From IMG/VR virus record IMGVR_UViG_3300032046_005540, positions 1 to 64,000 of that record: a stretch of 64,000 nucleotides of DNA; one strand, written 5' to 3'. A program made the translations under genes and the position numbers. The notes under the pieces were generated by a model, which saw nothing but the letters and a program-made list of their open reading frames with translations, did no database searches and was not told the DNA's origin. Shown in pieces: positions 9,801-58,186 of this stretch. Position 1 is the first letter of the stretch. Every line of letters starts with the position of its first letter. This DNA comes from a virus.

Positions 9801-11167
9801 AATTCTTGCGGTTGCTTCCCTTGCTGTGAAACAAGAATATCAAAAGCAAGCACATCAGTTAAATCTAAACCAGTATTTTTATATTCCATAGCACCAAATT
9901 TCATAATATCTTCTTTTAAAGCAAATTTTAATCCTAATAAAATCTCAGGATTTACCAGTTGAACAAAAGTAGTACCATCCATAGGAACAAATTTAGCGCC
10001 TAATTTTTCTAACTTTGATCTATCTTCAGTTTCAACATAAACTTTTTTTATTTGTTTAGAGGTCAATGCCTCCTTAGCAATTTCTCCGTCTCTTAAATAT
10101 CCATATTTTTCTAAATCAGACCAATCTTTAAAATCTTTATTATATTCTTTTGCTTTTTTTGCAGTTGAAGAATTAAAATAATCATTTGTTACATCAACAT
10201 GCACTTCAACTTCCTCTCCTTCAGCAACTTTCACTAGAGGCAGTAATTCTTGAAATCCTTGTTTTAACATAGAGGCAATTTTTTCTAATTTATATCCTCT
10301 AATATATGCTGGATTTGCTACTACACTTAATTCAAAAAATGAGAGGCCATAATTAATTTCAAAAACTGTAGCAGTTACCATTCTACTTGTTTTTCCGGAA
10401 AGGACTTCTCTTTGATCTGCTTCTCGTTTAAGAACCCATTTTATCCATTCTGGTCTAAGCTTTCCTTCTTTCAGTAAATTTCTAATTTGGTTAGTGGGAA
10501 CTAAAACAGTAGAACCTTTAGAATAAGCAATATGTCCACAATAATCTAATTCTGTTCTAGCCCTATTGCCACAAATACTACAATCGCTAAACTCGATATT
10601 TGTCCCCATACTACAGCCAAGCGAAACATCGGAATCAACTTGGCGGGCAATCGAAGGAGATAATTTTGCGTCTACAGCCATCAACACCTCAATGCTCCCG
10701 TCTTCCTCAGGCTTTCTATTTGCTAAAACTTCCATTCTCTCTTCAGAAGTTAAATCACTCCATTCTCTATTTCCATATTTACTTAAATCAAATCTATTTA
10801 AATAAGCACCAAGTAAAGTTCCAATACTTTTAGTAACGTCATCACTTTGATGCTCCACAAAAGCTTTTTTGTTTATGAAAGAAGTATATCCATATCCTGA
10901 GCGAGAATCTAAAAATTGATCATATGGAAAGCCGTCGTAGTTACAATTTGGGCCATCCACGCACAAATTCCCAATTGCTCTAAAGCGAATGTACCGCATA
11001 TCATTATTATAAGGAGAAATTTTTTGTATTTGAGCTGCGTATTTATGAACAACTTCAGGGAAAACAGACCCCATACTGCAATTCTGACAATTGCTCTTAT
11101 TGCAATTAATACATGAACCCATTTTTCCTGGAGAAGAAAAATATTTAGTTAAAATAACTTTTTTCAT
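6833..11167 (-). CDS. Prohead (capsid maturation) protease fused to a long scaffold region
   Basis: N-terminal FVEH...SIG...SMGT..EFSDCSICGN...CGHI...FEIN.GLSFFELSVVANPA fits an HK97/herpes-assemblin-type protease with a Zn-ribbon insert; about 1100 aa of E/K-rich coiled coil follow; lies just upstream of the capsid genes. Confidence 0.8.
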   Translation of the reverse strand: MKKVILTKYFSSPGKMGSCINCNKSNCQNCSMGSVFPEVVHKYAAQIQKISPYNNDMRYIRFRAIGNLCVDGPNCNYDGFPYDQFLDSRSGYGYTSFINKKAFVEHQSDDVTKSIGTLLGAYLNRFDLSKYGNREWSDLTSEERMEVLANRKPEEDGSIEVLMAVDAKLSPSIARQVDSDVSLGCSMGTNIEFSDCSICGNRARTELDYCGHIAYSKGSTVLVPTNQIRNLLKEGKLRPEWIKWVLKREADQREVLSGKTSRMVTATVFEINYGLSFFELSVVANPAYIRGYKLEKIASMLKQGFQELLPLVKVAEGEEVEVHVDVTNDYFNSSTAKKAKEYNKDFKDWSDLEKYGYLRDGEIAKEALTSKQIKKVYVETEDRSKLEKLGAKFVPMDGTTFVQLVNPEILLGLKFALKEDIMKFGAMEYKNTGLDLTDVLAFDILVSQQGKQPQELVDNMYEQAGGDEKKLRVINDWVKMLQTKYKVVPREYKLEKKEIKNIEEGEKGMVEKKKAVYRSLPPTVEDMKEFVLANMFMKTAGMLGSKSFGEWLNLIKGAWNNFGDLTQILKDLQETYEYIKDLGKNFPEEEIRIGGLLSLIDRVKKRLEEFDAELVTAKTAVYDGLPSTAEDIKDEGIDIEKTEIKSWKGMSEKGDKMVEKEKESRSPGVIFLKDEVSAAKVVRDTKKAVQELKLQVEATLKKLTGELPPGLKEYMERKREEKGGEREPGEKPKEEGFERKEEKPEGEKKPELKPGEKVEEKKPENVKEVLQNAITDLKEVHEDLEKVEEKLEGEAEKPLASVLKGNKRYGRHLQFAVEEALREAKPVIEDAQEAVEEAEKIITDTIKNLEKVEKPKEKEFGKEKEFEKPKEEEKFKEKGEGGENVAKKIEDVIAGANSIKKASDQLRQMFDKEATSFPPTGARDPGDYGEPPVAKELSTWKGFNQEYEKMKGKEKRTEFDTPEGRVDLLTGVVAKLFINREKRGDAYWLVTKEGSNFAMKSTFADVAGNDNLTEENFKKFCSNSYKLLILKTVSSKGLDDVRREMFGSWVKVVRKTAKKSAGEWDRLVRGAWNDQNKLAQILDDLREDYNYEKGYAEVTPQQEVVIGALESLIDRVAERLGVSEAVEESVSEKYTPSYASKKRKTAAPFEGREITTIPKGLYDSHEGEKDSGKARPGVEAVDAPKVAGDKKYFTEAFGDSGYAGELTKAKVAAIVKENENLRKKVKALEEDRIAEALAKRAVDLARKAAAAGVIPFDTDSVTEKAQEYSELDDRGFKAVEDTLNVLPVVNAKALKAYQIPEAENVNSGIVYDATESVRDEKEGKHPDQLKLDNMKDDVESAAKLSKKADIGLTEEGEVIPPVQEKSRFERPAIVEEETTEEELTADVKERIRKKASVVPQLHKATADLESTNRVPDFSGRFTTIENTLRKKGIEYAPKVHYYKR

Positions 11168-12147
11168 ATCAAATTTCCTAATTTATTTTTTACTTCTTCT
11201 GTATTTTTTAAAATATCACTTTCCCAAAATCTTAAAAGAATAAAATTACTAGTTTTAGCTAATTTTTCTTTAATAAAGTCTTTTTGTTTTGTTTCTTTTT
11301 GATGTTTATTTAATTTTTGAAATTTTTTAGGATTACCATGCCAGTAATCTCCATCTACCTCTATTAAAATATTAGTATTTAGAATGTGAAAGTCATAAAG
11401 GCAATTTTTAATTCTAAACTGATGTTCAAAAGGAATGTTTAGTTCATTTAGAATTTCTTTCATTTTTAATTCAGGTCCAGTGTTTTTATAAAGGCCAAGG
11501 TGAGTTTGAAGTTGAAATATAGTACATTCACTTTGATTCTTAAAAACTCGTAAATTTTCAACCCTATTATCATTTTCTATTCCATTTATATGATAAACTA
11601 CTACAGTTGGATCTAAAAATTTACCTTCAAAGCCTTTCACTTCAATTAAAAACTCAGAATTAGGATCATGCTCTTTTAAATAATTCTCCATTACTAAACG
11701 ATGTTCCAAAATACGATCACTACCACTACATATATAAGCAAATGGATGAGTCTTTTTTTCTAAAAAAATAAGAATACGCCCATGCCCATCTTTAATTTTG
11801 CCATTTTTATAATTTGGAGCTCTTTTACCTGTTCTACCAAATATAGGATGGTTTTCACCGCACAGTTCCCCTCTTATAACAAAATTATTTTGTTTTCCAA
11901 GTTGTTTACAAGACTCAGTAGCAGCTGCTTCCTTATTATTTCTTGTTTTGCCCCATTTGTTAACTATTTTACAAATAACCCCTTGACTACAATTCAACTT
12001 TCTGGCTAATGTATAAGTACTAATTTCTTCCACTCTATATTGTCTTTCAATTTCTTTTTCTTGTAAATCTAAAAATTTACGTATACCAGTATTTGCCCTT
12101 CTTTCGTGTTTTCCTTTAAACATTTTATATATTCTCTCCCAAATCAA
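11164..12147 (-). CDS. Homing endonuclease with HNH-like and Vsr/DUF559-like domains (true start probably 12123)
   Basis: EHRLVME...VYHINGIENDNRVENL (HNH-type) followed by TGPELKMK...LIEVDGDYWHGNP...LLRFWESDI. Confidence 0.75.
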   Translation of the reverse strand: MIWERIYKMFKGKHERRANTGIRKFLDLQEKEIERQYRVEEISTYTLARKLNCSQGVICKIVNKWGKTRNNKEAAATESCKQLGKQNNFVIRGELCGENHPIFGRTGKRAPNYKNGKIKDGHGRILIFLEKKTHPFAYICSGSDRILEHRLVMENYLKEHDPNSEFLIEVKGFEGKFLDPTVVVYHINGIENDNRVENLRVFKNQSECTIFQLQTHLGLYKNTGPELKMKEILNELNIPFEHQFRIKNCLYDFHILNTNILIEVDGDYWHGNPKKFQKLNKHQKETKQKDFIKEKLAKTSNFILLRFWESDILKNTEEVKNKLGNLI

Positions 12148-13018
12148 CTTTCTCCTCCAACGGTACTTCTTTTGTCATACCTCCTTCAACAGGAACAGCA
12201 CTTTCAGTGGGCCCAATTAATTCTATATCACTTATAAAATCAGATCCAAAATCCTTTCCGTCCACAGTCATCCAAAATGCCAACTCTGTTCCAACCTTAA
12301 CTACTTTAGCTTCCTTTTTTGAAGAAGTTAAAATTTTATCTCCAACAGCTAATTTTTTAGGAGTTTTAGTAGAGGATTCTGTTCCTAAATGAACATGTAA
12401 AAAATTACCACTAATTTCCCAAATCCCTTTATCTTCATCAACAACTTCAAGTCCATCACCAGATTCAGCATACTCATCTCTTATTAATCTTTTATGTATT
12501 TTTTGAAGAGCTTCTTCTAAAGAAGACGCTGAAGTTATATAAGTTTGTAATCTTTCTCCATAATCAGAATCTTCCAAAATTCCTACATATTTCTTATTAA
12601 TTACAGCTAATTTTTTAGGAGTTTTAGTAGAAGCAATTGCAATAAGATATTCTTCAATTTGTTCTTTCAAGAATTTAGATGGTTCATCGTCTCTTTTAGA
12701 AAGAAACCTCCGTAAAAATTTTAATATTTCTTTATTTACACCATCTCTTATTCCTCCATAGAAATCTTCAGCTTGTTGTGCAGCCTCTTGACCTAAAGAA
12801 GAAGCAATATCAGCTATCAATTTTTTCTCTTCAGAAAATAAAAGAGCTCTCTTCCTCATACTTAATTTTGAAGTTGGTAAAACCGAAGGGTCGTGATCTT
12901 CGGATTTCTTTACATCTGATTCTGGAGGAAAAATAAGTTTTTGAAAATCTTTTGATAAAGGTTTTTTTGTAAAATCCCGCGTATCCCGTTCATATTCAGT
13001 AAAATCTTTTTTTGGCAT
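12125..13018 (-). CDS. Motif-punctuated small polyprotein-like ORF (KLSMRKRA plus two STKTPKKLAV)
   Basis: Motifs seen in the translation; first gene of the head operon; AGGAG RBS. Confidence 0.6.
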   Translation of the reverse strand: MPKKDFTEYERDTRDFTKKPLSKDFQKLIFPPESDVKKSEDHDPSVLPTSKLSMRKRALLFSEEKKLIADIASSLGQEAAQQAEDFYGGIRDGVNKEILKFLRRFLSKRDDEPSKFLKEQIEEYLIAIASTKTPKKLAVINKKYVGILEDSDYGERLQTYITSASSLEEALQKIHKRLIRDEYAESGDGLEVVDEDKGIWEISGNFLHVHLGTESSTKTPKKLAVGDKILTSSKKEAKVVKVGTELAFWMTVDGKDFGSDFISDIELIGPTESAVPVEGGMTKEVPLEEKVDLGENI

Positions 13019-45191: not shown

Positions 45192-46112
45192 CTATTCCTC
45201 TGGATAAAAATCTTCAATCTTTTGCCCTTTATCTGTAACAACTTCAACATTAGATATATTTTCATATATCTTATAAATTAATTCATCAAAATACATAACA
45301 TTATCTATCAACCCAAACCATAAGGCATCAGTTGCATCATATGTTCTTCCGTCACTTATATTTTCTAAATAATTCATTACTTTTTTATCGTTTGGTTTAC
45401 TTTGATTATATATTTCTGTATATGCTTGAATTAATTTTTTCCCCCGGCAATCAAAAATATATTGAAGAAATTCACGATATAATTTATTTATCTGATTTTG
45501 TAAAATTTCTTTTTCTTCTTCTGTTAACTTACTATGAGAAAAAAACATTGTTTTATTTTTTCCTGACTTGATCAAAATATATTTCACTCCAGACATTGAA
45601 TCAGAAACTGTTTCATCAACTCTCAAAGTAAAAACACCTATAGATCCAGTTTCTCCCGAAGGAGCTACAACTATTTTATTAGCAGTACAAGCAACCCAAT
45701 ATGCTCCTGAATATAAACCCTTTTCAGAATAAACTAAAAGACTTTTATTATATTTTCTCATTAAAACACTTATTTTATGAGTAGTTAATTTAGTCTCTAT
45801 AACATCTCCTCCATTAGACTCCGTCCATGCAATAACTCCAACACAATCTGACTTTTTAAATTCTTTCTCAATTTTATTTGCCCAATCTAAACTAACATCT
45901 CCTTCTAATTTTAAAACAACAATTTTATTTTTTTCTAAAAAAGGATTATTTAATATTAAAGGGTTGGTTGTAGATTGTGTAACAGAAACATTAGAAGTAG
46001 AATTAGCTGTAAATTGACAAATGCCCCAAAAACCTACAAAAGAAACAAAAAATACAAATAATACAATTAAATATTTTTCATTATTCGTTTTCTGTATCTT
46101 CATCTTTGTCAT
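45192..46112 (-). CDS. S49 (SppA-like) peptidase with N-terminal TM
   Basis: SNGG, SGAYWVA, TGSIGV, KSG..K, GR.Y.A..AL..GLID. Confidence 0.85.
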   Translation of the reverse strand: MTKMKIQKTNNEKYLIVLFVFFVSFVGFWGICQFTANSTSNVSVTQSTTNPLILNNPFLEKNKIVVLKLEGDVSLDWANKIEKEFKKSDCVGVIAWTESNGGDVIETKLTTHKISVLMRKYNKSLLVYSEKGLYSGAYWVACTANKIVVAPSGETGSIGVFTLRVDETVSDSMSGVKYILIKSGKNKTMFFSHSKLTEEEKEILQNQINKLYREFLQYIFDCRGKKLIQAYTEIYNQSKPNDKKVMNYLENISDGRTYDATDALWFGLIDNVMYFDELIYKIYENISNVEVVTDKGQKIEDFYPEE

Positions 46113-46959
46113 CTTCTTCTTCTCCTTCTACTTCTCTTTTTTCAAACAATTTTCGAGCGTCCTCTTTTTTCTTTTTTCTCATTTTTTCGCACTTTTCAGA
46201 AGTAAATTTTGGATCATATATAAATTGAAAACACTCTTTTTCAAGCCATCCATAAATACTATGTATTGGAATAAAATATCCCATATGAGTAATACTATCT
46301 CCCCATCCTATAACATTCATTCTGCTTGGAATTCCTATAAATAAATAGTCTTCTCCTTCTCCTTTTACTTCTTCCTCTTGCTTAATTAAAAATACTCCTC
46401 CCCCACTATTACCGTATATGATCAATCCGTTACTCATCCAATAAGGATGATTTTCCATTTCATCATCTTGAGATGTAATCTCTCCACGAGTGGGAATTGG
46501 AGAATGCCCAAGACTACAACCACACATATACACAGGATCAAAAATATGAATATTCTTTACATCATCTAAATATAATTTAGCAACATTTTTAACTTGTTCG
46601 TTTGATCTTAATTTTACTAAAGCAATATCTCTATCCCTATTATAAGTCATAATATCTGCTTCAATCGCAGTTCTTCCTACATTACGACTCATATTCTGAT
46701 ATTTATAAAATTCTACATTCACTGTTTTTCTTCTTTCTTTATCAATTCTTTTTGAAAGAAGAGGATCCCACTCTTTTTTAACAGATATTGCATCTTCAAT
46801 CACATGCCAGTTTGTTAAAATATATGTTTCATATTCTTCCGATCCCTTTTTTGTAGGCTTAGAATAAACAACAGTTCCACTTCCTCCCGCTTTATCAGTT
46901 TTAACGAGAGCAGAAACATATAAAATTTCTTCATGTTTCTTTTTTATATTATTGTTCAT
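46081..46959 (-). CDS. Trypsin-like serine protease (S1)
   Basis: GSGTVV, ILTNWHVI, DIALVKL, GNSGGG; paralogue of 38499-39146. Confidence 0.88.
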   Translation of the reverse strand: MNNNIKKKHEEILYVSALVKTDKAGGSGTVVYSKPTKKGSEEYETYILTNWHVIEDAISVKKEWDPLLSKRIDKERRKTVNVEFYKYQNMSRNVGRTAIEADIMTYNRDRDIALVKLRSNEQVKNVAKLYLDDVKNIHIFDPVYMCGCSLGHSPIPTRGEITSQDDEMENHPYWMSNGLIIYGNSGGGVFLIKQEEEVKGEGEDYLFIGIPSRMNVIGWGDSITHMGYFIPIHSIYGWLEKECFQFIYDPKFTSEKCEKMRKKKKEDARKLFEKREVEGEEEDDKDEDTENE

Positions 46960-48394: not shown

Positions 48395-51300
48395 CTAAAT
48401 TTGTTTTATCTCTCCCCCTTCTGCTCCATATGGAATACTAAAATCTGGAAAAATCAATTCTTTTGTAGGTTTATATTTTTTTAGTCTATTTGACTCGCCC
48501 CAAGGATCATCTTCAACTGTTCCTTCAATCTCAGCCTGAGCTGGTTCAGAAGGATAACCAGGCCCTTGATCTTCCCTCAAAAGCAATGAAGGGCTGTTAT
48601 AATTTTTTGTTGTAGGTTGACCTTCAAAACTTAATTTTGTTGTAGAACCCATAATTTCTTGAACTTTACCAAGAGGAAAATGTTCATCTTCAGGTGTATA
48701 TGCTTCTAATTCAGTTATAGTAGGATCTAAATCCAATGTAGTAATTAATTCAGGCACATAATACACAAAATTTCCAAGTTTTCCTGAATCTTTTAACCAC
48801 CCAATAAAATTTTTTCCGTAGTATCCCCTTTCAATATCATCAAACTTTTTTCCGGCAGATGGAAGATTAATTGTTTCAAACCACTGCACATGAGAATCCC
48901 AATCTACAGATTTTGCAGGAGGAGTTATATAAACCTTTCCTTCATATACAGCCCACAACCCACCTTCGTTTTCAAAAAATGCTTTCTTTCTTAAACTCAA
49001 CGAAGCTAAATCAATATGAGGATCTAAATTATGTTCTACGATTGAATCATTTTTATCATGTCTTGGAGGATTTGTTCTTCTTAATTTTTTATTATCTGTT
49101 TTATCTTGACTAACCCAATTTTCAGGAATTTCTGAAACATTATCAGTTAAAAATGAGATTTTTCTCATTGCTAACTTCGGTTCCCAAATAACATCTTCAT
49201 CATTATTCAAAATATACTTTATATTTTCTGGGGAAATAACTTCAGTAGAAATATACCAATCAGTCATTCCTTGCCATTCCATATATTTATTACCAAGATC
49301 TAATAATTGTTCTTTCGTTGGATTATCAATTCCTTGAGCTTCTGCTAATCCTTCCCCATACCACATAATTGTATCAGGAGCGTATTGATTTAAAAGTTCT
49401 GCAAAATTTTGTATTGTAGCACTACTTACAATAACATAAATTGAATCTGGAGAACCTTTTCCTCCATCGCTTCTATAAAGTTCCCTAGGTTCATACAAAG
49501 TAAACATTATAAAATGAGGATACCCAGGAATATTTTTAAAAAAAGGCCCTGGCTCTGTTACAAAAGAAGGATCAAGTCCTTTTTGTAAAATACTTTCTAA
49601 ATTCCTTTTTGAAGTTTCATGAGAAAATAATTTTTGTGAGGTTTTTCTCATACTTAATTTAGGAATCAAAACATCCTCTAATTCTTTTGTTTCTTCTTCA
49701 GTAACTTGATCATCTTTTATTATATGTTTAATCTTTCTCAAAATATCTAAATATCTATATCTTTCAATTAACTTAAAAAGAATATTCCCAGGAGTCCAAT
49801 TTTTGCTTAAACCTTTCTCAATTGGTTCTTGCCCGTCATAAAATGCTTTATTTCTTTCCTCATGTATTTGTTCATTTTCTTTTTGTAACTGCTTTAAACC
49901 TTGTTCAATATCTTCTAACTTTTTTTCTACCAACTTTTGAATATCCTCTTTATCTCCTTCATAAGAACTTACCAATTCTTTTAAAATATTATAATCAATT
50001 AAGTCTCTTTTAGTTTTACCTAACTCTTCATCCAGCTTTTTCATAATATTTTCAGCTTTATCTTGTAACAACTTAATTTTGTCACTAACATCCAAGTTTT
50101 CCGGCATTTTCTGTGGTGAAACGATCCACTTATCATTTAGTATATCATAAGCCTCTTCACCCTGTGTCAATACACTTTCTTTGGCTGACAATATATAATA
50201 TGTAAGAGGATGTGAGGTTCCTGGTAATTTTTCTTTATTTAAAGTGTTCCAAAACACTTTTAGCAGTTCTTTTTGCATTTCTTCGTTGTCATCCTTTGCT
50301 TTATTTAGATTGTTCTCTTTATAAATATCCCAATCTACTTCAACATGAATGTCAATATCAGAAGTCTTTAGGTATCTATAAGTTGCAGTTGATCCAGTAT
50401 AATAAAATCCTTTACACCAAAGTTCTGGATTATTTATTCCTACTTCTCTCAAATAATCAATAAACCTTTTTATAATAAGGGTTTTAACATCTTTTTTTAA
50501 TTTTGGAAGGTCTCCAGATAAATCCCACATTTCTGGATCTAAATGTTTTTGAGGGTAATCGAGAATAGATGCTTTTTTATTAAACAAATACTCAGTTTGA
50601 GAAAAAATAGTTTCAAACAATTTTTCAGCTTCTTCCTCCAAATTTGGATTAACCATATTCATAACTATATGAGGTTCTCCTGTTATAAAATGGTCATGTA
50701 TAAAACTAATGATATTATCAATAGATATCATAATATTTTCATCAGTAACTGCAAACTCTAATTCTCGTATATCATCTTCAACTATAATAATACTTTCTTC
50801 GACGTCTTTATCTTCTTCAATACCTTCATACTCTTTCTTCATGTGTTCTAACAGTTTTTGTAAATTCTCAATAAAATCATATTGAATTTCAACTAATAAA
50901 TCATGATCATAAACTCCAGGAGTTTTTAATTGTTGTTTATAAAGCTTGCGAATATTACCTATATTAATAAATGCTTTCTTCCTCAAACTCAACGAAGCTG
51001 TCATTGTTTGTTCAGAGGTAGGATTATCTCCCCAAAGCCAAGGATCTCTATTTATTTTTACTTTTCCAGGAAACTTAATATCAAACCCTTGATCCGGTTG
51101 TCTTTCAAGCCATTTATCTTTTCCTTGAAAATATACTTCTCCTTCAGGATGTTCTCCTTGTTGACCTTGAAGAGGTTCATTCGGAGTTGGTTCAGAAACA
51201 GTAGATGCTGGTTTTTTCATTCTTAAATTTAAACTTTCTATAGGTTCTTTTTCTCCAATACTTTCTATAGTATTATAAATTTCATCAAAATCTCCTTGAA

Positions 51301-54300
51301 ACCAACCAAAGCTATAAGTTAAATGCGCTTGATGAATAATTTGATCAATAGCAATTATTTTTTCAGGCAAAGACTTAGTAAGAACTATTTCCATTTCGTG
51401 TATAAAATCATTCATATCATCTTCATAGCCTTCTCTATACATTTTAGGTAGGTCTTCGGGTATATCAGGGTCATTCCAAATACGAATTTTCTCCTGTTCC
51501 ATACCGTATATCAACTTAGTAATGACGTTATCTACAAATTCGTCTGTTAATAAACCTTTTCTTTCTAATTTATAAAATCGTTTAAGTTCTTGAATAGATA
51601 ATTTGTTAGAATCAGAAATATCTTGTGCTATTTTTTCTTTTTTCTTTTTTCGAGGCCAAGAATGAGGATAATCTAAAGATTTAAGAATTGGATTAGGAAC
51701 CGAAAATAGTTTTCTTAAATAATTAAATGTTTTTGTAATTAAATTTGAAGTTTCTTTTTCTTTTTTCATAGCTAAAGTTGTAATACCTTGAGTATAATCT
51801 AACATTTGAACCATTGCATCTGGAGGAAAATTCAAAGCGTTTTTTAGTTCTTCTAAATGATCATAAAATTCATTATAATCCCCCATTCCATACCAAACTA
51901 TTCTTTTTTCTTCTGGTTTAAAATCTTTACTACCAAACGCATAATCATAAAAATATCCTCTAACTATATTATCAAATACTTCTCCAGCTGAAGGAAGACC
52001 AATTTCTTCAAACCAATTCGGATGTCTTTTTCCAGGACTATAAGTTATATAAACATTTCCTTTATATATTGCCCAAGAACTTTCATTAGAAATAGGTTCG
52101 TCATAAATAAATGTTTCTGCTTTCTTTCTTAAATTTAATGAACTGCTAATTTTTAAATTACTTAATTCATCAAGAAATGTAGACCCTTCAGAGATAGGCC
52201 CCCAAACATCTTTTTTAGCAGGGCCATATTCAAAGTAACCAGAAATAAGATGTTGTGCATAGACATCATACATATGAGATGTATGAATAACAGTATCTAT
52301 AGCAACCATCTTTTCCTGAGGAGTTTTCGCTTTTTCTAAAACTGAAATAAGTCCACGAGTAACCTGAGACCAATCTATACTCGTTAAACTATCCAATGGA
52401 TGTTTTTCTTCCCAATTAGCTAATTCCAAAAGATTTTGTATAAACTTCGAAATAATTTCATCCATTAATTCTTCATCGTAAATGCCTTTAGCTTCCTGCC
52501 TATACAACCTAAATAATTCTTGTTTAGTTGTTAGAGGTGTAGGAAAATCTTCTTCATCATTTTGAGCTGTTTTTCTTAACTGTAAACTACTTAATTTTAT
52601 TTCTTTTTCCCATCCATGAGGTAATCCTTCAATTTGATATTCATGTGTTTTAGCTTCTTCTAGACTTAACAATAAAGTACTTTGGCAAATATCACAATTA
52701 ACCATTATAATTTTTTCATCTCCAAATTCTTGAAAACCTATAAAAGTATATGTAGGAATTTTATTATGAATTTCTTTATATTTATATTCATGACTTTCAA
52801 TACCTGCTTTTTTTCTCAAATTTAAAGAAACTTTTTCAAATGGTATTAACTCTTCAAAATATGGATCTCTAACTGAAATTTCTGTATCAGGTTTTAATTT
52901 AAGGACACTTAATAGTTTTGGTAAATTATCACTAAACTCTTCAAATGTTCCTGTATCTTTATACCATATCAGCCAATTATTACCATACCAAATTCCTCGA
53001 GGAGCAGAATCAAACGCAGTTCCTCCTGTAGGTAATCCTATTTCTTCAAACCAAGTTTCATGATGTTTGTATTCTTTAGTTGTTTTATATATTTCGCCAT
53101 TATAAATTGCCCAAAGGCCATCAGCATTTGCTTTCTTTCTCATACCTAACACTAATGCATTAGGTTCTTTAGATTCTAAAATTCCTAAAATAATTTCTGA
53201 AAATCTTTCAATTTCCCAAGTGCTTAATTCCGGATAATGATTTAAAACATAATTATAAATATTTTCATAAATTTTTGGTAATTCTAAATTTTCTTTAAAA
53301 TGGTTCAATGTTCTATTAATAACTTCTGAATCTAAAGTTGCTTTTTTCTTCATACTTAACTTTGTTCCCATTCCTTCATAAGCTAAAATAGAATTTGCAA
53401 TATATTTTTGTAAATCTAACAAATTATTAATTCTATTAACATTATTTATGATTGTTTGTTTATCCTCTTCAGCAATTTGAGAATTTTCAACTCTATTTAA
53501 AACTATATTTTTTGCTTCTGTTAAATCTAAAGCTTTCCAAACATCTTGTGCAATATCTTCTAAAATAGATATAATAGGACCTTTGTATTTTTTTGGTTTT
53601 CCTCCAAACTTTAAAGATGTTAGCATACCAAAATCTTCTTTCAACTGATCTAAAATAGCAAGGGCAATAAAAACACTTCTATCCGAAAAAACTTTCAAAT
53701 CTTCTTCTAAATGTTTTGTCAAATCAAGTATAAATGGTTTTTCATTAAATAAATTTTCATAAATCTCTTCAGCATTATGTAAATGTTCAAATTGTTTTAC
53801 AAAATCCTTAATAAATATTTCTTCTTCAGGAGTTAAATTTTGTTGAGATTGTTTTCTCATACTTAATTTTTCAACTACTTTTTGTTTTTGAGTCAATTTA
53901 GGAGCTAATTTAAGTTTACCTTGTTCTTGTAAAAAATCAATTAGATTACTCCAAACTTCATCAACTTTTTTTGATTTTTCAAGCGTTAATCCTTCTTCAC
54001 TTGTTCTATCAAGATATTCGTCATAATCCATTTTTAAATGCCAAATTATTGGAAAATCGACATGCATCATATTTATAGTATTATCAATAACAATCATTTT
54101 TGAATTAATATCAAAAGCATTATTTAATTCTTCCCAACGTTGTTTCATTTCTTCAATAACTTGTAATTCTCCTTCTTCTTTTCGAATATTCTCAGGATCT
54201 ATACCTTCATACCATTCAAAATAATCTTCAAAAAAGAACATCAAATCTCGAATAATTCTATCTGTTAAATTATCTAATTTTCTTTCAGTTTGCTGAAACT

Positions 54301-57300
54301 GATTAAATTCTGCCTCAGTTAAAGTTCCTTCATTATATTTTTGTTCTAATTCTCTATATCGTAATTCAAGTTCATAAACTGTTTTTAATTCACTAGGAGT
54401 AATAACTGCTTCTTTTCTCATTACTAAAGTCTTACTCCCAAATGGTTTTTTCAATGTTCTAGGTTTTGTATATTCTTTCCAAACCTCATTAACTAATTGT
54501 TGCCAAAAAGGTTTTTCTTCTTTTTCTTCTATTTTCTCTTTAGGTTCTCCAAGAATAGTAGGAGTAGGAGCAAATGCTATTTCAGGTTCTTCTTCTGTAG
54601 GAATTTTTTCTTCTAACTCTTCTTCTTCAATTGTAAATTTAGGCTCTTCAACAGGAGTTGGAATTTCTTTAAGAACTTCTTTTGGCTCTTCTACTTTAAT
54701 AAGTTCTTTTTTAGGTTCTTCTATTTTTTCTTCAAGTTTTTCAACTGGAATTTCTTTTTTAATTTCTTTTTCTGGCTTTTTTATTTTCAACTCATCTTCT
54801 GCAAACGGAGCAGTAAATCCAGGTTTAAATACATTAACTAAATCGTCAGCAACATTAGTTACTTCTTTAATTTCAATATTATACAATCCTTCTTCAGCTT
54901 TTCCTTTTATAATCCCTTTACCTTTTAGAACACCTCCAGGACTTTTTCGAGTTGCACCAAAATATCTTGTAGTATCAAATTCAACTTCATCTCCAGGTTT
55001 AAATTCTGTTTGAGCAATTCTTTTTAAATTTAAACTGCTAACTTTTAAATTGCTTAATTCCTCAAAAAAAAGATCATTTGACTTTATATCTGTTATCAAA
55101 TACTCTCCATATACACCAAATTCATGAGCTGTGTTTATTACTCTATCTATTGCAATCATTTTCTCTTGAGGAGTTGTTGCTTGTTGTAATATCTGAAGCA
55201 TTTTCTTTTCATCATTTATTATATTGTGTATAATTTGTTCATCCTCTGCTCCCTTTGAAAGTTTCAAATCTTTTTCATCAAATTTAATTAACCCTTCTAT
55301 AGTATTTATAAAATCAACAATAATCTGATCCATTAATTCTTCATCATAAATACCTTTTGCTTCTTGTTTATAAAGTCTTTTTAGTTGTTGTTTAGTCGTT
55401 TGTGATTCAAATTGAGCAGATTTTTCAAACCTAAGTTTTAGTTGTTGGGGGATAATAAATTGCTCTTCTATATTCTTTCTTATAGTTTCTTTTAAACTTT
55501 TTCCATATATTAATTCAAAAGGTTTTTGAAAAGCTTTATATTTACCCTCTTGTTCTTCTTTTGATTTTTCTTTTTTAAATCTTAAATTTTCAATAAATTC
55601 AGGAGATGGAGAAAAAAGATCAGGCTGCAAAAGTTCTTCTTGTTCAATTATAACCTTCTTATGACCAATGCGTTTAGGATTAAGATAATCTACATAAAAC
55701 TCAACATTAGGGCCAAGTTCTAAAGCAACAACCAGAGCATCTAAATTATTATTATACTCCTCAATTGTTCCTGTATTCTTATACCAAAAAACCTGATTAT
55801 TATTTTCAAGACGGCCCCGCGTGATGCGGTCAAAATATACACCACTCATAGGCCATCCCAAATCTTGAAACCATCCAGCATGATCTTCTCGATCATTCCA
55901 GTTGACTACTACTTGTCCTTCATAAATAGCCCATAAAGCACGACCATTACGTTTTGTAGTTTCTTTTCTCATACTTAGTTTATTTGCTACTATACCTCTA
56001 CTAATTACTTCTTTAGCTTGTTCTACTTCTTCTACTGTTACATCTGTTTTCTTACCACTTGCTATATCCCAGATTTCATCTTCAGTGTATTTTTGGAGTA
56101 GAGCGGAAAATGGAACTTTAACCCAAGGAACTCCAATTTCTTCAAGTTTTAAATCTTTTACAAGATTTTCAACTGGTTCTTTATAAAAACTCCTATACCA
56201 TTCTCCCAAAGCTTCTCCTATTTTTTCAGATGCTAATTTTTCAGTAAATGTTCCTAATCCATATTCATCAGTAACATAAACTTTCCACTGCTCAATAAAA
56301 GAAGAAGGAAACCTTCTCATATTATCCAAAATCAAACCATTTACTAAATGTTCACTCACATCTACATTTGAGGCAATATTATATATAAAAAGTCTTATAT
56401 CTCCAAGATTAGTTATTTTGAATTTATTAAGTTTTTCTAAAATATATTCAACACTTTGTGCTTTCTTTCTCATATTTAACTTAGATGCAAATTCTTTCAA
56501 TTCTTTTAATCTTTTTTTAGCTTCATCCCTTACAAAATCTTCTTTATCTTTAACCAATTCAGTTAATGTCTCAAAAAGAGTATTTTTGTTTTTAGCAACT
56601 TCCCAACGAATTCCTGGATCTTCATCTTTTGCTAACTCCACTAAAGTTTCAGGAGGAGTTCTTGGATTACTTGCTAACCTACTTTTTTCAAGCCCAGTTA
56701 AATATTTTTCCGGAGCTTCTACAACTTCTTGACCTTTTAATTGTAAATCTTCAATTACAAACTTTTGAATATCAGAAGAAAGATAAGGTAGGAGTTGTTC
56801 AAGAGTAGTTCCTGCTTTTATTTCTAATACCTCAGCAATCCATTTTTTTGTTTCTGGAAAATCTTCTAATAATAAACCTGTATTATGTTGAATATCATTT
56901 ATATGATCAATTATAGTTATGAGTTGATTAGTATCAGAAGTATTGATAAGTTGAATTAAAGATTCAGTTATATGACCCCAAGGAAGAACCTTGCGTTTCA
57001 TCCATTTGTTCCATTTTCCCTCATTCCATATTCGACTAACTTGTTCAAGAGGCAAATTTTTCAATTCTCCAAGATTCTTTATATTAAATTCTTTTTTCCA
57101 TTTATTCCAATCTAATAAACAAACACTGACTCCTCTACACGCATATACCAACGCTTTATATATACTTTTTGTAATTAAAGGAGCATATTCTTCTTTTACT
57201 TGTTGAACAATCATATCTTTATATTGAGAAGCATAAGGATTTTGTTCTAAATATTGATCCGAAAGGAGACTAACACCATAAAAATCATAAAATAGTTGTT

Positions 57301-58186
57301 TGTCAAGTTGAGAAGTTTTACGCATACTTAAACTTCCAAATATTCCTGGTCCTTGAGGATGTGGTCCTGGAGAAGACTCATACTCCATAGGATTTGAATA
57401 ATTAGGATCTATATTTATTATATTTCCTTGTTCATCTGGGTAATTATAAAAAGGAAGACGTTGTCTTGGTTTTTTAGGACCTTTAGGCCATTCATCTGAT
57501 TTTCCAGGTTCATAAAAATTTTCTTGCATAGTTTCAGGTTCGGCTGTTTTACGAAAGTTTAAATTACTGCTAATTTTTAAATTACTTAATTCATCAAAAA
57601 AAGGATCATATCCAGGTTCTACTCCTTGTATTAAAATTTCTCCATATTTTCCATGACCATGCATAGTATTTATTACTTGATCTATTGCTATCATTTTTTC
57701 TTCAGGAGTTTTTGCTTGTTGTAATATATTAATAAAATTAGTAAAATCTTTAGTATAGGTTTTCATATACTGTGGAGGAGACATTCCTTGGAAAGTTTGT
57801 TCAAAAAATTGTTTATATTTTTCTAAAGTATCTAAAAATTTTGAAATAATCTCATCTTCTAATTCTTCATCATAAATACCTTTTGCTTCTTGAATATATA
57901 ATCTTTTTATTTCTTCTTTTGTAACTTGAGGAAGAGGAAAAGGATATTTCTGTTCAGATTTTTTCCTTAAACTCAAAGAAGCTATTTTTGGAATATAATT
58001 CAAAATAGATTCTTTCATTTCTTCTGGGGAAACAAAAAAAGTCCCTTTTAAATTATCCAAAATATGTTTTTTATAGAAATCATGGTGTGGATGATTTGTA
58101 GGCACTCCCTGTTCATTTAAAATTTCAGAAACGGAATTAGAGTCAGCAAAAAAATATCGAGGTTCACTTTCCAATCTTTTAATCAT
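48395..58186 (-). CDS. Polyprotein A (3263 aa): about 25 modules separated by L-x-[MLF]-[RK]-[KR]-x-[AS] linkers
   Basis: 17 clear and about 6 degenerate linkers; includes a nucleotidyltransferase, an ART-like domain, LRV repeats, an SH3/KOW-like domain and two internally amplified domain families. Confidence 0.75.
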   Translation of the reverse strand: MIKRLESEPRYFFADSNSVSEILNEQGVPTNHPHHDFYKKHILDNLKGTFFVSPEEMKESILNYIPKIASLSLRKKSEQKYPFPLPQVTKEEIKRLYIQEAKGIYDEELEDEIISKFLDTLEKYKQFFEQTFQGMSPPQYMKTYTKDFTNFINILQQAKTPEEKMIAIDQVINTMHGHGKYGEILIQGVEPGYDPFFDELSNLKISSNLNFRKTAEPETMQENFYEPGKSDEWPKGPKKPRQRLPFYNYPDEQGNIINIDPNYSNPMEYESSPGPHPQGPGIFGSLSMRKTSQLDKQLFYDFYGVSLLSDQYLEQNPYASQYKDMIVQQVKEEYAPLITKSIYKALVYACRGVSVCLLDWNKWKKEFNIKNLGELKNLPLEQVSRIWNEGKWNKWMKRKVLPWGHITESLIQLINTSDTNQLITIIDHINDIQHNTGLLLEDFPETKKWIAEVLEIKAGTTLEQLLPYLSSDIQKFVIEDLQLKGQEVVEAPEKYLTGLEKSRLASNPRTPPETLVELAKDEDPGIRWEVAKNKNTLFETLTELVKDKEDFVRDEAKKRLKELKEFASKLNMRKKAQSVEYILEKLNKFKITNLGDIRLFIYNIASNVDVSEHLVNGLILDNMRRFPSSFIEQWKVYVTDEYGLGTFTEKLASEKIGEALGEWYRSFYKEPVENLVKDLKLEEIGVPWVKVPFSALLQKYTEDEIWDIASGKKTDVTVEEVEQAKEVISRGIVANKLSMRKETTKRNGRALWAIYEGQVVVNWNDREDHAGWFQDLGWPMSGVYFDRITRGRLENNNQVFWYKNTGTIEEYNNNLDALVVALELGPNVEFYVDYLNPKRIGHKKVIIEQEELLQPDLFSPSPEFIENLRFKKEKSKEEQEGKYKAFQKPFELIYGKSLKETIRKNIEEQFIIPQQLKLRFEKSAQFESQTTKQQLKRLYKQEAKGIYDEELMDQIIVDFINTIEGLIKFDEKDLKLSKGAEDEQIIHNIINDEKKMLQILQQATTPQEKMIAIDRVINTAHEFGVYGEYLITDIKSNDLFFEELSNLKVSSLNLKRIAQTEFKPGDEVEFDTTRYFGATRKSPGGVLKGKGIIKGKAEEGLYNIEIKEVTNVADDLVNVFKPGFTAPFAEDELKIKKPEKEIKKEIPVEKLEEKIEEPKKELIKVEEPKEVLKEIPTPVEEPKFTIEEEELEEKIPTEEEPEIAFAPTPTILGEPKEKIEEKEEKPFWQQLVNEVWKEYTKPRTLKKPFGSKTLVMRKEAVITPSELKTVYELELRYRELEQKYNEGTLTEAEFNQFQQTERKLDNLTDRIIRDLMFFFEDYFEWYEGIDPENIRKEEGELQVIEEMKQRWEELNNAFDINSKMIVIDNTINMMHVDFPIIWHLKMDYDEYLDRTSEEGLTLEKSKKVDEVWSNLIDFLQEQGKLKLAPKLTQKQKVVEKLSMRKQSQQNLTPEEEIFIKDFVKQFEHLHNAEEIYENLFNEKPFILDLTKHLEEDLKVFSDRSVFIALAILDQLKEDFGMLTSLKFGGKPKKYKGPIISILEDIAQDVWKALDLTEAKNIVLNRVENSQIAEEDKQTIINNVNRINNLLDLQKYIANSILAYEGMGTKLSMKKKATLDSEVINRTLNHFKENLELPKIYENIYNYVLNHYPELSTWEIERFSEIILGILESKEPNALVLGMRKKANADGLWAIYNGEIYKTTKEYKHHETWFEEIGLPTGGTAFDSAPRGIWYGNNWLIWYKDTGTFEEFSDNLPKLLSVLKLKPDTEISVRDPYFEELIPFEKVSLNLRKKAGIESHEYKYKEIHNKIPTYTFIGFQEFGDEKIIMVNCDICQSTLLLSLEEAKTHEYQIEGLPHGWEKEIKLSSLQLRKTAQNDEEDFPTPLTTKQELFRLYRQEAKGIYDEELMDEIISKFIQNLLELANWEEKHPLDSLTSIDWSQVTRGLISVLEKAKTPQEKMVAIDTVIHTSHMYDVYAQHLISGYFEYGPAKKDVWGPISEGSTFLDELSNLKISSSLNLRKKAETFIYDEPISNESSWAIYKGNVYITYSPGKRHPNWFEEIGLPSAGEVFDNIVRGYFYDYAFGSKDFKPEEKRIVWYGMGDYNEFYDHLEELKNALNFPPDAMVQMLDYTQGITTLAMKKEKETSNLITKTFNYLRKLFSVPNPILKSLDYPHSWPRKKKKEKIAQDISDSNKLSIQELKRFYKLERKGLLTDEFVDNVITKLIYGMEQEKIRIWNDPDIPEDLPKMYREGYEDDMNDFIHEMEIVLTKSLPEKIIAIDQIIHQAHLTYSFGWFQGDFDEIYNTIESIGEKEPIESLNLRMKKPASTVSEPTPNEPLQGQQGEHPEGEVYFQGKDKWLERQPDQGFDIKFPGKVKINRDPWLWGDNPTSEQTMTASLSLRKKAFINIGNIRKLYKQQLKTPGVYDHDLLVEIQYDFIENLQKLLEHMKKEYEGIEEDKDVEESIIIVEDDIRELEFAVTDENIMISIDNIISFIHDHFITGEPHIVMNMVNPNLEEEAEKLFETIFSQTEYLFNKKASILDYPQKHLDPEMWDLSGDLPKLKKDVKTLIIKRFIDYLREVGINNPELWCKGFYYTGSTATYRYLKTSDIDIHVEVDWDIYKENNLNKAKDDNEEMQKELLKVFWNTLNKEKLPGTSHPLTYYILSAKESVLTQGEEAYDILNDKWIVSPQKMPENLDVSDKIKLLQDKAENIMKKLDEELGKTKRDLIDYNILKELVSSYEGDKEDIQKLVEKKLEDIEQGLKQLQKENEQIHEERNKAFYDGQEPIEKGLSKNWTPGNILFKLIERYRYLDILRKIKHIIKDDQVTEEETKELEDVLIPKLSMRKTSQKLFSHETSKRNLESILQKGLDPSFVTEPGPFFKNIPGYPHFIMFTLYEPRELYRSDGGKGSPDSIYVIVSSATIQNFAELLNQYAPDTIMWYGEGLAEAQGIDNPTKEQLLDLGNKYMEWQGMTDWYISTEVISPENIKYILNNDEDVIWEPKLAMRKISFLTDNVSEIPENWVSQDKTDNKKLRRTNPPRHDKNDSIVEHNLDPHIDLASLSLRKKAFFENEGGLWAVYEGKVYITPPAKSVDWDSHVQWFETINLPSAGKKFDDIERGYYGKNFIGWLKDSGKLGNFVYYVPELITTLDLDPTITELEAYTPEDEHFPLGKVQEIMGSTTKLSFEGQPTTKNYNSPSLLLREDQGPGYPSEPAQAEIEGTVEDDPWGESNRLKKYKPTKELIFPDFSIPYGAEGGEIKQI

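What the first reader, a model, noticed from the sequence alone, without database searches (positions are those of the whole stretch)
48395..58186. Giant phage polyprotein punctuated by a conserved LSMRKxA linker: candidate cargo-sorting/processing system
SEEN: the 3263-aa ORF is a chain of about 25 modules of roughly 45-310 aa. Nearly every boundary carries L-x-[MLF]-[RK]-[KR]-x-[AST]: SLSLRKKS (~57960), NLNFRKTA (~57545), SLSMRKTS (~57315), KLNMRKKA (~56465), KLSMRKET (~55965), SLNLKRIA (~55020), TLVMRKEA (~54415), KLSMRKQS (~53855), KLSMKKKA (~53345), VLGMRKKA (~53135), SLNLRKKA (~52810, ~52125), SLQLRKTA (~52570), SLSLRKKA (~50980, ~48990), KLSMRKTS (~49645), KLAMRKIS (~49160). The same motif occurs six times in ORF 15322-18879 and once each in 12125-13018 and 63490-63843. 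All four ORFs lie near head or packaging genes. Synonymous codons vary (Arg as AGA/AGG/CGT/CGG), so selection appears to be on the peptide. KNOWN: T4 gp21 and phiKZ gp175 cleave internal head proteins at short motifs, and the HK97-related herpes assemblin cuts after Ala. INFERENCE: these are polyproteins whose motif is a capsid-targeting tag and/or a K-x-A cleavage site, releasing many separate effectors that are packaged and injected. I know of no described bacteriophage system with this many motif-delimited, exchangeable cargo domains.
Basis: partly seen in the sequence, partly recalled or inferred. Interest (0 to 1): 0.95.

Follow-up and report, generated by a model that had tools for sequence, protein, structure and literature searches.

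The report
Motif-jointed giant phage cargo polyprotein
An uncultured phage distantly related to Bacillus phage G encodes a 3263-residue protein made of about two dozen swappable modules joined by one conserved seven-residue peptide, which is probably a recognition and cutting site for a phage protease, though no cutting or packaging has been measured.

Summary
L-x-[MLF]-[RK]-[KR]-x-[AST] occurs 18 times in the 3263-aa ORF. It occurs 27 times in five ORFs of the 168-kb contig and nowhere in the other ~50,000 aa (29 PSSM hits against ~1 in shuffles).

New evidence:
- Four homologous giant proteins from metagenomes carry the same modules in different order and number.
- 58% of their block ends lie within 12 residues of a motif or terminus, against 13% for random positions.
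- One relative splits the gene exactly at a motif.
- In two AlphaFold models the motifs lie outside the folded cores.
- A shorter core, [RK]-K-x-A, is enriched only in virion-block genes and sits at conserved borders in the scaffold-fused head protease. A K-x-A version lies in the capsid protein's N-terminal extension.

Best reading (about 0.5): virion-associated polyproteins whose linkers are address-and-cut sites for the head protease, which is a homologue of phage G gp19.

Not shown: cleavage, packaging, injection or effector function. Most modules belong to two uncharacterised repeated families. One motif-bearing paralogue lies in the tail cluster. Terminal motif copies argue for more than a cut site.

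Closest published concept: polyvalent proteins (PMC5512222). This scan's own unchecked notes report similar motif-jointed phage polyproteins, with other motifs, in about 89 other genomes.

The parts
48395..58186 (-). Giant modular ORF (P0001, 3263 aa): conserved N-terminal ~70-aa head domain, about 22-24 modules, conserved C-terminal ~80-aa tail
57956..57976 (-). linker motif LSLRKKS (aa 71)
57542..57562 (-). linker motif LNFRKTA (aa 209)
57311..57331 (-). linker motif LSMRKTS (aa 286)
56459..56479 (-). linker motif LNMRKKA (aa 570)
55958..55978 (-). linker motif LSMRKET (aa 737)
55013..55033 (-). linker motif LNLKRIA (aa 1052)
54407..54427 (-). linker motif LVMRKEA (aa 1254)
53846..53866 (-). 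linker motif LSMRKQS (aa 1441)
53339..53359 (-). linker motif LSMKKKA (aa 1610)
53129..53149 (-). linker motif LGMRKKA (aa 1680)
   Evidence: pLDDT below 50 in model m255e906b9eee
52805..52825 (-). linker motif LNLRKKA (aa 1788)
   Evidence: pLDDT about 51. The orthologous joint is the start of a separate gene in L002
52565..52585 (-). linker motif LQLRKTA (aa 1868)
   Evidence: pLDDT below 50 in model ma77d654c2e98
52118..52138 (-). linker motif LNLRKKA (aa 2017)
   Evidence: pLDDT 41-59
51206..51226 (-). linker motif LRMKKPA (aa 2321, weakest strict copy)
50972..50992 (-). linker motif LSLRKKA (aa 2399)
49637..49657 (-). linker motif LSMRKTS (aa 2844)
49154..49174 (-). linker motif LAMRKIS (aa 3005)
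48980..49000 (-). linker motif LSLRKKA (aa 3063)
52238..52543 (-). Example of module family A, a four-helix bundle with invariant I-D...H (aa 1882-1983). Other full copies at aa 84-188, 927-1033, 1285-1386, 2192-2296 and 2403-2509; partial copy at 375-443
52880..53122 (-). Example of module family B, an alpha/beta domain with signature WAIY.G...H..WF..GLP..G..FD...RG (aa 1689-1769). Other copies at aa 749-829, 2035-2125 and 3075-3158
49658..50584 (-). Nucleotidyltransferase-like module (aa 2535-2843), 72-73% identical in P0002 and P0004
15322..18879 (-). Second polyprotein (1185 aa) directly downstream of the portal gene. Motif copies at aa 4, 214, 643, 729, 945 and 1176, including both termini. 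Contains LRV repeats and a weak sigma-factor-like module
12125..13018 (-). 297-aa head-cluster protein with a conserved ~50-aa N-terminal part ending in KLSMRKRA (aa 52). The motif is conserved in relatives L003, L004 and L006
63490..63843 (-). 117-aa protein upstream of the terminase gene, with RLSMRKRA at aa 21
6833..11167 (-). Head-maturation protease (aa ~40-300, homologue of phage G gp19) fused to a ~1100-aa scaffold-like region. Conserved [RK]-x-A sites sit at the borders of variable stretches
6190..6204 (-). F-R-K-E-A in the 47-aa N-terminal extension of the major capsid protein (ORF 5251-6240). Conserved as PPGF[RSQ]K[EKT]AP in relatives
46081..46959 (-). Trypsin_2 serine peptidase, kept in synteny with the polyprotein in three phages; rival candidate for the processing enzyme
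45192..46112 (-). S49 (SppA / lambda gpC type) peptidase with an N-terminal hydrophobic stretch that reads as a transmembrane helix

Best explanation
The 3263-aa ORF is a virion-associated modular polyprotein. It has a constant N-terminal head domain and a constant C-terminal tail. Between them lie about two dozen independently folding modules that evolution adds, drops, duplicates and reorders.

Every joint carries one short peptide, L-[SN]-[MLF]-R-K-x-[AS]. I read this peptide as a two-part signal. Its [RK]-K-x-A half is the recognition and cutting site of the phage's head-maturation protease. That protease is a homologue of phage G gp19 and is here fused to the scaffold. The same core marks the protease-scaffold's own processing borders and the capsid protein's N-terminal extension. 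The hydrophobic L-x-[MLF] half lengthens the recognition surface and may serve as the address that docks the chain onto the protease-scaffold core of the procapsid.

On this model the cargo is taken in while the procapsid assembles. It is then cut into single modules when the protease is activated, and these modules stay in the head to leave with the DNA.

Shown: the motif, its restriction to a few genes in virion blocks, its position outside folded cores, module shuffling at motifs, a gene split at a motif, and homology of the protease.

Inferred: that the motif is cut, by which enzyme, after which residue, and that the pieces are packaged and ejected.
For: - Specificity. There are 27 strict copies in five ORFs and none in ~50,000 aa of other ORFs; 29 PSSM sites against ~1 in shuffles.
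- Boundaries. In two AlphaFold models, built on 19-row and 12-row alignments, the folded cores reach pLDDT above 90. All four flanking motifs lie in stretches with pLDDT about 40-60.
- Exchangeable units. Homologues of 2830, 2405, 1479 and 1873 aa carry the same modules in other orders. Of their block ends, 58% lie within 12 aa of a motif or terminus, against 13% for random positions.
- Independent modules. In L002 the gene is split, with an ATGA overlap and a Shine-Dalgarno sequence, and the second gene starts M-T-L-F-M-R-K-K-A. Other relatives start MLNLRKKA or MRKKA. Module A also exists as stand-alone proteins of 120-160 aa.
- Link to the head protease. [RK]-K-x-A is enriched only in the protease-scaffold, the four larger motif-bearing proteins of the head region and two further polyprotein-like genes beyond the window. 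All other proteins together have 28 observed against 23 expected. In an alignment of five protease-scaffold relatives, K-[KT]-A, KKTA, IRK[KQ]A and SIKKA sit at conserved borders of variable stretches. The capsid protein's extension keeps PPGF-x-K-x-AP. The protease domain is homologous to phage G gp19.
- Context. One polyprotein directly follows the portal gene. That is the position of MuF-type polyvalent proteins (PMC5512222). The giant one lies between the terminase and the head genes.
- Precedent. T4 capsid targeting sequences are removed by gp21, and T4 Alt is processed at both termini (PMC9026906).
- Internal translation starts at the motif's Met are unlikely. Only 1 of 27 has a Shine-Dalgarno-like sequence upstream, against 65 of 121 real gene starts.
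Against: - There is no proteomic or biochemical evidence of cleavage, packaging or ejection, and the phage is uncultured.
- The specificity of this protease family is unknown to me.
- The capsid-protein site has Pro right after the Ala, which most serine proteases disfavour. It shares only F-x-K-x-A with the linker.
- A fifth motif-bearing protein (contig 150473-152029) lies in the tail cluster, between a tube-initiator-like gene and an M23 tail lysin. A protease enclosed in the prohead would not normally meet it there.
- Motif copies at the extreme N- and C-termini are conserved in several relatives. Cutting there would release only 4-8 residues, so cutting alone does not explain them.
- Some joints in homologues have decayed motifs (LNMGKQA, LNMRSDM, LNLRQKE).
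- About half of the modules are repeats of two families of unknown function. This fits a structural or adaptor role at least as well as 'many effectors'.
Confidence: 0.5

Rival explanations
1. The chain is not cut. It is one intact beads-on-a-string virion protein of the polyvalent kind, like the 3500-aa N4 virion RNA polymerase, which is packaged unprocessed. On this reading the conserved linkers are short docking motifs or hinges. A shared partner reads them, for example the scaffold, the portal, the packaged DNA (through the R-K pair) or module A itself. They are used for loading, for lining the capsid or for threading through the tail.
For: - Terminal motif copies are conserved at the very start and end of portal-adjacent homologues. 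A pure cut site would not need these.
- Seven conserved positions, including two hydrophobic ones, are typical of a peptide-docking motif.
- The C-terminal motifs are modelled as helices continuous with the preceding helix, at low confidence.
- N4 vRNAP is packaged uncut (PMC5512222).
- Small modules of 300 aa or less on flexible joints suit passage through a tail channel (inference).
Against: - The same [RK]-K-x-A core recurs at conserved borders in the protease-scaffold, the classic self-processing substrate.
- Genes split exactly at motifs, and stand-alone modules exist, so the modules work apart.
- Scaffold and core proteins of T4 and phiKZ-type phages with repeated short motifs are in fact cut (PMC9026906, PMC10052503).
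Confidence: 0.25
2. The linkers are cut, but by the neighbouring trypsin-fold serine peptidase (46081-46959), or less likely the S49 peptidase, acting in the cytoplasm. This would resemble the chymotrypsin-fold proteases of RNA-virus polyproteins and would be independent of the capsid. Products could then go to head, tail or host.
For: - The gene order polyprotein, exonuclease, Trypsin_2 peptidase is kept in three phages.
- A free protease could also reach the motif-bearing protein encoded in the tail cluster.
- The residue six positions before the catalytic Ser (G-N-S-G-G-G) is Leu, not Asp. This would suit a small or hydrophobic P1 such as Ala (read; inference from general S1-family knowledge).
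Against: - Relatives of this peptidase at 45% identity sit on contigs of 12.8 and 21.4 kb (16 kb of the latter held here) with no motif-bearing protein.
- The synteny is among close relatives only, and an unrelated exonuclease gene lies in between.
- This does not explain why the core motif marks the protease-scaffold and the capsid extension.
Confidence: 0.15
3. The motif has no present function as a peptide signal. It is a scar of how the gene grew. On this reading one ancestral linker was copied with every duplication, and its ~15-21 nt of shared DNA served as microhomology for recombination that shuffles modules.
For: Ser at motif position 2 is AGT in 20 of 20 copies in two phages, against a genome share of 32%. 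Its alternatives Asn (AAT), Gly (GGT/GGA) and Cys (TGT) are mostly one step away. Ser at position 7 is always TCN. The linkers are therefore homologous at DNA level.
Against: - Arg, Leu, Lys and Ala codons drift while the peptide is kept, and the peptide is kept across relatives whose modules are only 35-75% identical. That indicates purifying selection on the peptide.
- The motif joins unrelated folds.
- Common descent and present function do not exclude each other.
Confidence: 0.05

Closest known systems
Polyvalent proteins of phages and conjugative elements (Iyer, Burroughs, Anand, de Souza, Aravind 2017, PMC5512222)
   Same: Very long phage proteins that string many unrelated domains together. 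They are encoded next to portal, terminase or virion genes, show rampant domain shuffling between relatives, and are predicted to travel with the DNA. Some are processed, for example P1 DdrB.
   Different: None of their hallmark domains (MuF, MPTase/zincin, ART, DdrB-ParB, PBECR, lysozyme) was detected here. That paper does not use the word 'linker' at all, and the passages I read describe no linker code. Here every joint carries the same 7-residue motif. There are about 22-24 modules against their 2-15, and half of the modules are repeats of two unknown families.
T4 internal proteins IPI-III and Alt: capsid targeting sequence removed by prohead protease gp21 (PMC9026906)
   Same: A short N-terminal peptide both addresses cargo to the scaffold core and ends in the protease site. 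Alt is trimmed at both termini. Here, stand-alone and split relatives begin with the motif right after Met, and some also end with it.
   Different: The T4 rule is [LI]-x-E, cut after Glu. This motif is basic, has no Glu and ends in Ala or Ser. The protease is a phage G gp19 homologue fused to the scaffold, not shown to be gp21-type. T4 cargo proteins are separate small genes, not one 3263-aa chain.
phiKZ / SPN3US head and inner-body proteins cut at many sites by gp175 / gp245 (PMC10052503, PMC9026906)
   Same: Giant-phage head proteins carry several copies of a short protease motif. They are cut into fragments, and many are ejected.
   Different: Their sites are cut after Glu (PMC9026906). 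Known cuts mostly remove N-terminal propeptides. They do not describe a regular module-linker-module architecture or module shuffling at the sites.
Polyproteins of RNA viruses cut by chymotrypsin-fold proteases (own knowledge)
   Same: One translation product is cut at a repeated short motif into many functional proteins. A trypsin-fold peptidase gene lies two genes away.
   Different: No evidence links that peptidase to the motif. This is a dsDNA tailed phage, where separate genes are the rule.

Membership tests
Polyvalent proteins (PMC5512222) | Many distinct domains in one polypeptide of a phage or conjugative element | tested here: met
   19 strict segments. About 14 distinct module types, judged by eye from the segment list together with the family searches.
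Polyvalent proteins (PMC5512222) | Encoded beside portal, terminase or virion genes | tested here: met
   The giant ORF lies between the terminase and the head genes. The second polyprotein directly follows the portal gene.
Polyvalent proteins (PMC5512222) | Mosaic domain order between relatives | tested here: met
Polyvalent proteins (PMC5512222) | Carries hallmark conflict domains (MuF, MPTase, ART, DdrB-ParB, PBECR, lysozyme and others) | tested here: inconclusive
   No Pfam, PHROG or NCBIfam hit above threshold. There are only a weak NTase hit and a DarT/PARP lead from a language-model search. Several of these domains may be missing from the libraries.
Substrates of T4 gp21-type prohead proteases (capsid targeting sequence system) | Cleavage motif [LI]-x-E, cut after Glu | tested here: not met
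   The motif logo has no Glu at any conserved position.
Substrates of T4 gp21-type prohead proteases (capsid targeting sequence system) | Short N-terminal propeptide ending in the protease site | tested here: inconclusive
   The motif lies directly after Met in split or stand-alone relatives. Its removal has not been shown.
Substrates of phiKZ gp175 / SPN3US gp245 | Short motif cut after Glu (PMC9026906) | tested here: not met
   The motif logo has no conserved Glu.
Phage G gp19-type head-maturation protease | Sequence homology of the protease domain, including the His and Ser regions and the Cys-rich insert | tested here: met
   29% identity, E 6e-27 over aa 23-299. VEHQS aligns with VDHQN, DVSLGC with DVSMGC, and CSICGN...C.H is shared. 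PHROG 18299.
Phage G gp19-type head-maturation protease | Cuts at [RK]-K-x-A | not testable with these tools
   I found no specificity data. The phage G papers I searched give no cleavage sites.

The most novel reading that the evidence does not exclude
The seven-residue linker is a portable address-and-cut code read by a scaffold-fused head protease. Substrate capture by the protease would itself be the cargo-loading step. Multivalent chains would load with high avidity, and any module placed behind the motif would be packaged and released. This would be a natural plug-and-play capsid-cargo system, with a basic, Ala-ended code quite unlike the Glu-ended code of T4 and phiKZ. Its spread by recombination at the linker DNA would explain the free shuffling of modules.
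Probability: 0.3. Interest if true: 0.8.

Novelty: new variant of a known kind. Interest (0 to 1): 0.62.

Why it matters
If the linkers are cut, one gene would deliver about two dozen separate proteins into each capsid. The rule for entry would be a seven-residue tag that could be read from sequence alone. That would let virion cargo be predicted in uncultured large phages. It would extend the idea of polyvalent proteins by adding a defined processing code. It would give a second, chemically different protease code beside the Glu-ended one of T4 and phiKZ. It would also offer a simple tag for loading foreign proteins into capsids of this phage group in laboratory hosts.

The work also defines two widespread protein domains that are not in Pfam. 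Module A has 164 relatives in 1.84 billion representative proteins, including ~200-aa stand-alone proteins whose composition looks bacterial to me. Their function is now a clear question.

Tried and rejected
- Family searches of the giant protein gave nothing above threshold (Pfam, PHROGs, NCBIfam).
- Foldseek against PDB gave no significant match for module A and only E >= 0.002 gelsolin/ADF-like rows for module B. VIA-align wide for module B gave a best Z of 6.0 (gelsolin-like), below the level the tool calls meaningful. The ESM Atlas shape search for module A gave TM <= 0.5.
- PDB sequence searches with the protease domain, the trypsin-like peptidase and the NTase module gave nothing useful.
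- The word-indexed search found no stand-alone module B of 70-259 aa.
- Complex prediction of the protease domain with a 41-aa linker piece gave no verdict (score 0.19 against a mark of 0.32). This counts neither for nor against binding.
- A single-sequence scan of viral contigs with the trypsin-like peptidase found nothing. The alignment-based scan found two distant loci without polyproteins.
- Internal translation starts at the motif's Met are rejected: 1 of 27 has a Shine-Dalgarno-like sequence, against 65 of 121 real starts.
- Resemblance to the Prp / ribosomal protein L27 site used by Staphylococcus phage 80alpha was considered from memory and dropped. That site ends in F-A followed by S-K-K and does not resemble this motif.
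- Module A as a self-cutting peptidase was considered because of its invariant Asp and His. I dropped it because many joints have no module A next to them.
- The phage G head region was scanned for the core motif. There are only scattered hits (gp20 N-terminus, gp21), too few to conclude anything.
Full report
**What the window is.**
The window is the first 64 kb of a 168,267-bp contig with 30% G+C, and nearly all genes are on the minus strand. It is a tailed phage. The major capsid protein (5251-6240) is 41% identical to gp27 of Bacillus phage G, and a decoration-like gene lies just upstream of it. ORF 6833-11167 begins with a head-maturation protease domain that is 29% identical to phage G gp19 (E 6e-27). 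It continues into ~1100 aa of charged, scaffold-like sequence. The portal gene (18996-22196) and the large terminase gene (60242-63478) both carry insertions.

**The observation.**
ORF 48395-58186 gives 3263 aa. In the whole contig there is one further carrier, a 518-aa ORF at 150473-152029 with 3 copies. No copy occurs in about 50,000 aa of other minus-strand ORFs. A position-specific matrix finds 29 sites against about 1 in shuffled proteins. The logo is [SKR]-L-[SN]-[MLF]-R-K-x-[AS]-[QFNE].

**Codons.**
Arg, Leu, Lys and Ala codons at the motif follow genome usage, so the peptide is kept while synonymous sites drift. But Ser at position 2 is AGT in 14 of 14 copies here and 6 of 6 in a relative, although AGT is only 32% of Ser codons in the genome. 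Most alternatives at that position (AAT, GGT/GGA, TGT) are one step from AGT. Ser at position 7 is always TCN, one step from GCN. The linkers are therefore copies of one ancestral sequence that spread by duplication or recombination. They are not independent inventions.

**Are the motifs at module borders?**
I built alignments of the two repeated module families from all copies in this protein and its homologues and folded one copy of each together with both flanking motifs.
- Module A is a helical bundle. The core has pLDDT about 90, and both motifs have pLDDT 41-59.
- Module B is an alpha/beta domain. The core has pLDDT above 90; the N-terminal motif is below 50 and the C-terminal motif about 51.

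In both models the motifs lie outside the confidently folded part.

**Are the modules exchangeable?**
A database search found homologous proteins of 2830 aa (partial, from a MAG), 2405 aa and 1873 aa. A 1479-aa ORF lies just upstream of the 1873-aa one.
- All share the first ~70 aa, and those that reach the end share the last ~80 aa. Between these ends the same modules appear in different order and number.
- Of 132 ends of best local alignments, 58% lie within 12 residues of a motif or a terminus, against 13% for random positions.
- In locus L002 the gene is truly split, with an ATGA overlap and a Shine-Dalgarno sequence. The downstream gene starts M-T-L-F-M-R-K-K-A.
- Other relatives start MLNLRKKA, MKNKLGMRKTA or even MRKKA. 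The portal-adjacent family both starts and ends with the motif.
- A profile of module A finds 164 proteins among 1.84 billion representatives. They include stand-alone proteins of 120-160 aa, ~200-aa proteins with a zinc-ribbon insert, and other giant phage proteins. The strict linker motif occurs in only 19 of the 151 proteins held, including those of this contig.

**Link to a protease.**
- The shorter core [RK]-K-x-A is significantly enriched in six proteins only: the protease-scaffold, three of the motif carriers, and two further polyprotein-like genes just beyond the window. Those two genes (contig 65791-69165 and 70219-73056) have joints that read A-S-K-K-T-A or S-I-K-K-x-A.
- All remaining proteins together have 28 copies of the core against 23 expected.
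- In an alignment of the protease-scaffold with four relatives, K-[KT]-A before V-Y-D-x-L-P, K-K-T-A before A-P-F-E-G, I-R-K-[KQ]-A and S-I-K-K-A are conserved islands at the edges of variable stretches. Self-processing sites usually look like this.
- The capsid protein has a 47-aa N-terminal extension that phage G lacks. Relatives keep P-P-G-F-x-K-x-A-P in it.

This is the best argument that the linker core is a head-protease site. It remains indirect.

**Points that do not fit a simple head-protease cut site.**
- The 518-aa carrier lies in the tail cluster, after the probable tape measure gene. It sits between a tube-initiator-like gene (PF23980) and an M23 tail lysin.
- Terminal motif copies are conserved although cutting there would free only a few residues.
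- The capsid site is followed by Pro.

A trypsin-fold peptidase and an S49 peptidase lie just downstream of the giant gene, and the former keeps this position in three phages. However, its relatives at 45% identity sit on short contigs without any motif carrier. The terminal copies and the two conserved hydrophobic positions suggest that the peptide is also a docking or address signal, as in the T4 capsid targeting sequence, where separate residues serve targeting and processing. T4 Alt is trimmed at both ends (PMC9026906).

**What the modules are.**
This is mostly unknown.
- Module A has 6 full copies, plus a partial core inside the LRV-repeat module, and has invariant Asp and His. It has no fold match.
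- Module B has 4 copies. It resembles gelsolin/ADF domains only weakly (Z 6.0, rmsd 3.9 Å over 88 residues).
- There are LRV/HEAT repeats, a nucleotidyltransferase-like module (19.2 bits against a cut-off of 21), and a module with a weak DarT/PARP lead.
- In the second polyprotein there is a weak sigma-factor-like stretch.

'Many injected effectors' is therefore not supported by what the modules are. A mix of adaptor or structural repeats and a few enzymes fits better.

**Comparison with what is known.**
The closest published concept is the polyvalent proteins of phages (PMC5512222). The architecture, gene context and mosaicism are the same. The hallmark domains are absent, and a uniform linker code is not part of that description. 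T4 internal proteins with their targeting sequence, and the multi-site processing of phiKZ and SPN3US head proteins, are the closest mechanisms. But their sites end in Glu, and this one is basic and ends in Ala or Ser (PMC9026906, PMC10052503). I file it as a new variant of a known kind.

This scan's own earlier notes are unchecked by me and are not independent evidence. They report similar motif-jointed phage polyproteins, with other motifs, in about 89 other genomes. Within the scan this is therefore a recurring theme, and this case adds a new code and a different protease type.

**Verdict.**
My probabilities are:
- about 0.5 for virion-associated polyproteins whose linkers are address-and-cut sites of the scaffold-fused head protease;
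- about 0.25 for an uncut beads-on-a-string protein with docking linkers;
- about 0.15 for cutting by the neighbouring trypsin-fold peptidase;
- about 0.05 for a functionless recombination scar.

Noticed in passing
contig 65791-69165 and 70219-73056 (L011:1791-5165 and L011:6219-9056, minus strand), just beyond the window: Two more polyprotein-like genes (1124 and 945 aa). Their small modules are joined by a related but shorter linker, [AS]-S-[KI]-K-[KT]-x-A (for example VASKKTAEE, SSIKKTAEP, RASKKKTAS). Both are enriched in [RK]-K-x-A and have no family hits apart from a weak Lar-like zinc ribbon.
   Followed up: partly
contig 150473-152029 (L012:3574-5130, minus strand): A 518-aa paralogue (LRV/HEAT module plus module A, 3 motif copies, starting MLYSLSFRKTS) lies in the tail cluster, between a tube-initiator-like gene and an M23 tail lysin. 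Its last 16 residues after the final motif are conserved in a stand-alone 154-aa relative (P0010).
   Followed up: partly
all motif copies, window and L002: Ser at motif position 2 is always AGT (20 of 20 copies in two phages, genome share 32%). Ser at position 7 is always TCN. This is a signature of common descent of all the linkers at DNA level.
   Followed up: yes
window 60242-63478 and 18996-22196: The large terminase (1078 aa) and the portal protein (1066 aa) are both about 400 aa too long. Both have endonuclease-like or unrelated PHROG hits in the middle. The terminase homologue in L002 has Intein_splicing and LAGLIDADG Pfam hits. These are probable inteins.
   Followed up: no
window 11164-12147, 13684-14505, 59343-60248; contig 64949-65776, 69170-70207, 73069-74064 and others: A large family of homing-endonuclease-like genes. 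Several copies share the N-terminus F-T-x-x-Q-E-x-x-I-C-x-E-Y-F-S-x-E-K-P-S. They are wedged between head genes and between the polyprotein genes.
   Followed up: no
window 13184-13696: A phage-encoded peptide deformylase with a C-terminal SEC-C zinc motif, inside the head gene block.
   Followed up: no
window 14523-15329 and aa 740-838 of ORF 15322-18879: A sigma-factor-like gene (PHROG 351) lies directly downstream of the second polyprotein. That polyprotein itself contains a weak sigma-70-like module (NCBIfam SigY, E 4.5e-5, far below the cut-off).
   Followed up: partly
window 45192-46112 and 46081-46959: An S49 peptidase with an N-terminal hydrophobic stretch that reads as a transmembrane helix, and a trypsin-fold peptidase with an acidic tail. 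The two genes overlap by 32 nt. With the head protease, this phage has three proteases.
   Followed up: partly
proteins P0037, P0043, P0048: Module A has ~200-aa stand-alone relatives in which a four-Cys zinc ribbon is inserted into the bundle. Their amino-acid composition looks bacterial to me. They keep the signature E-[KR]-M-x-x-I-D-x-L-I-H-x-x-H. This domain family is not in Pfam.
   Followed up: partly
window 49175-49636 (aa 2851-3004 of the giant protein): A module beginning L-F-S-H-E-T-S...I-L-Q-K-G-L. Its nearest Atlas clusters are unnamed ~140-160-aa proteins from phages and bacteria. One lower-ranked cluster is named DarT-domain, with PARP on 38% of its members. This is a possible ADP-ribosyltransferase-like module, as a lead only.
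   Followed up: partly
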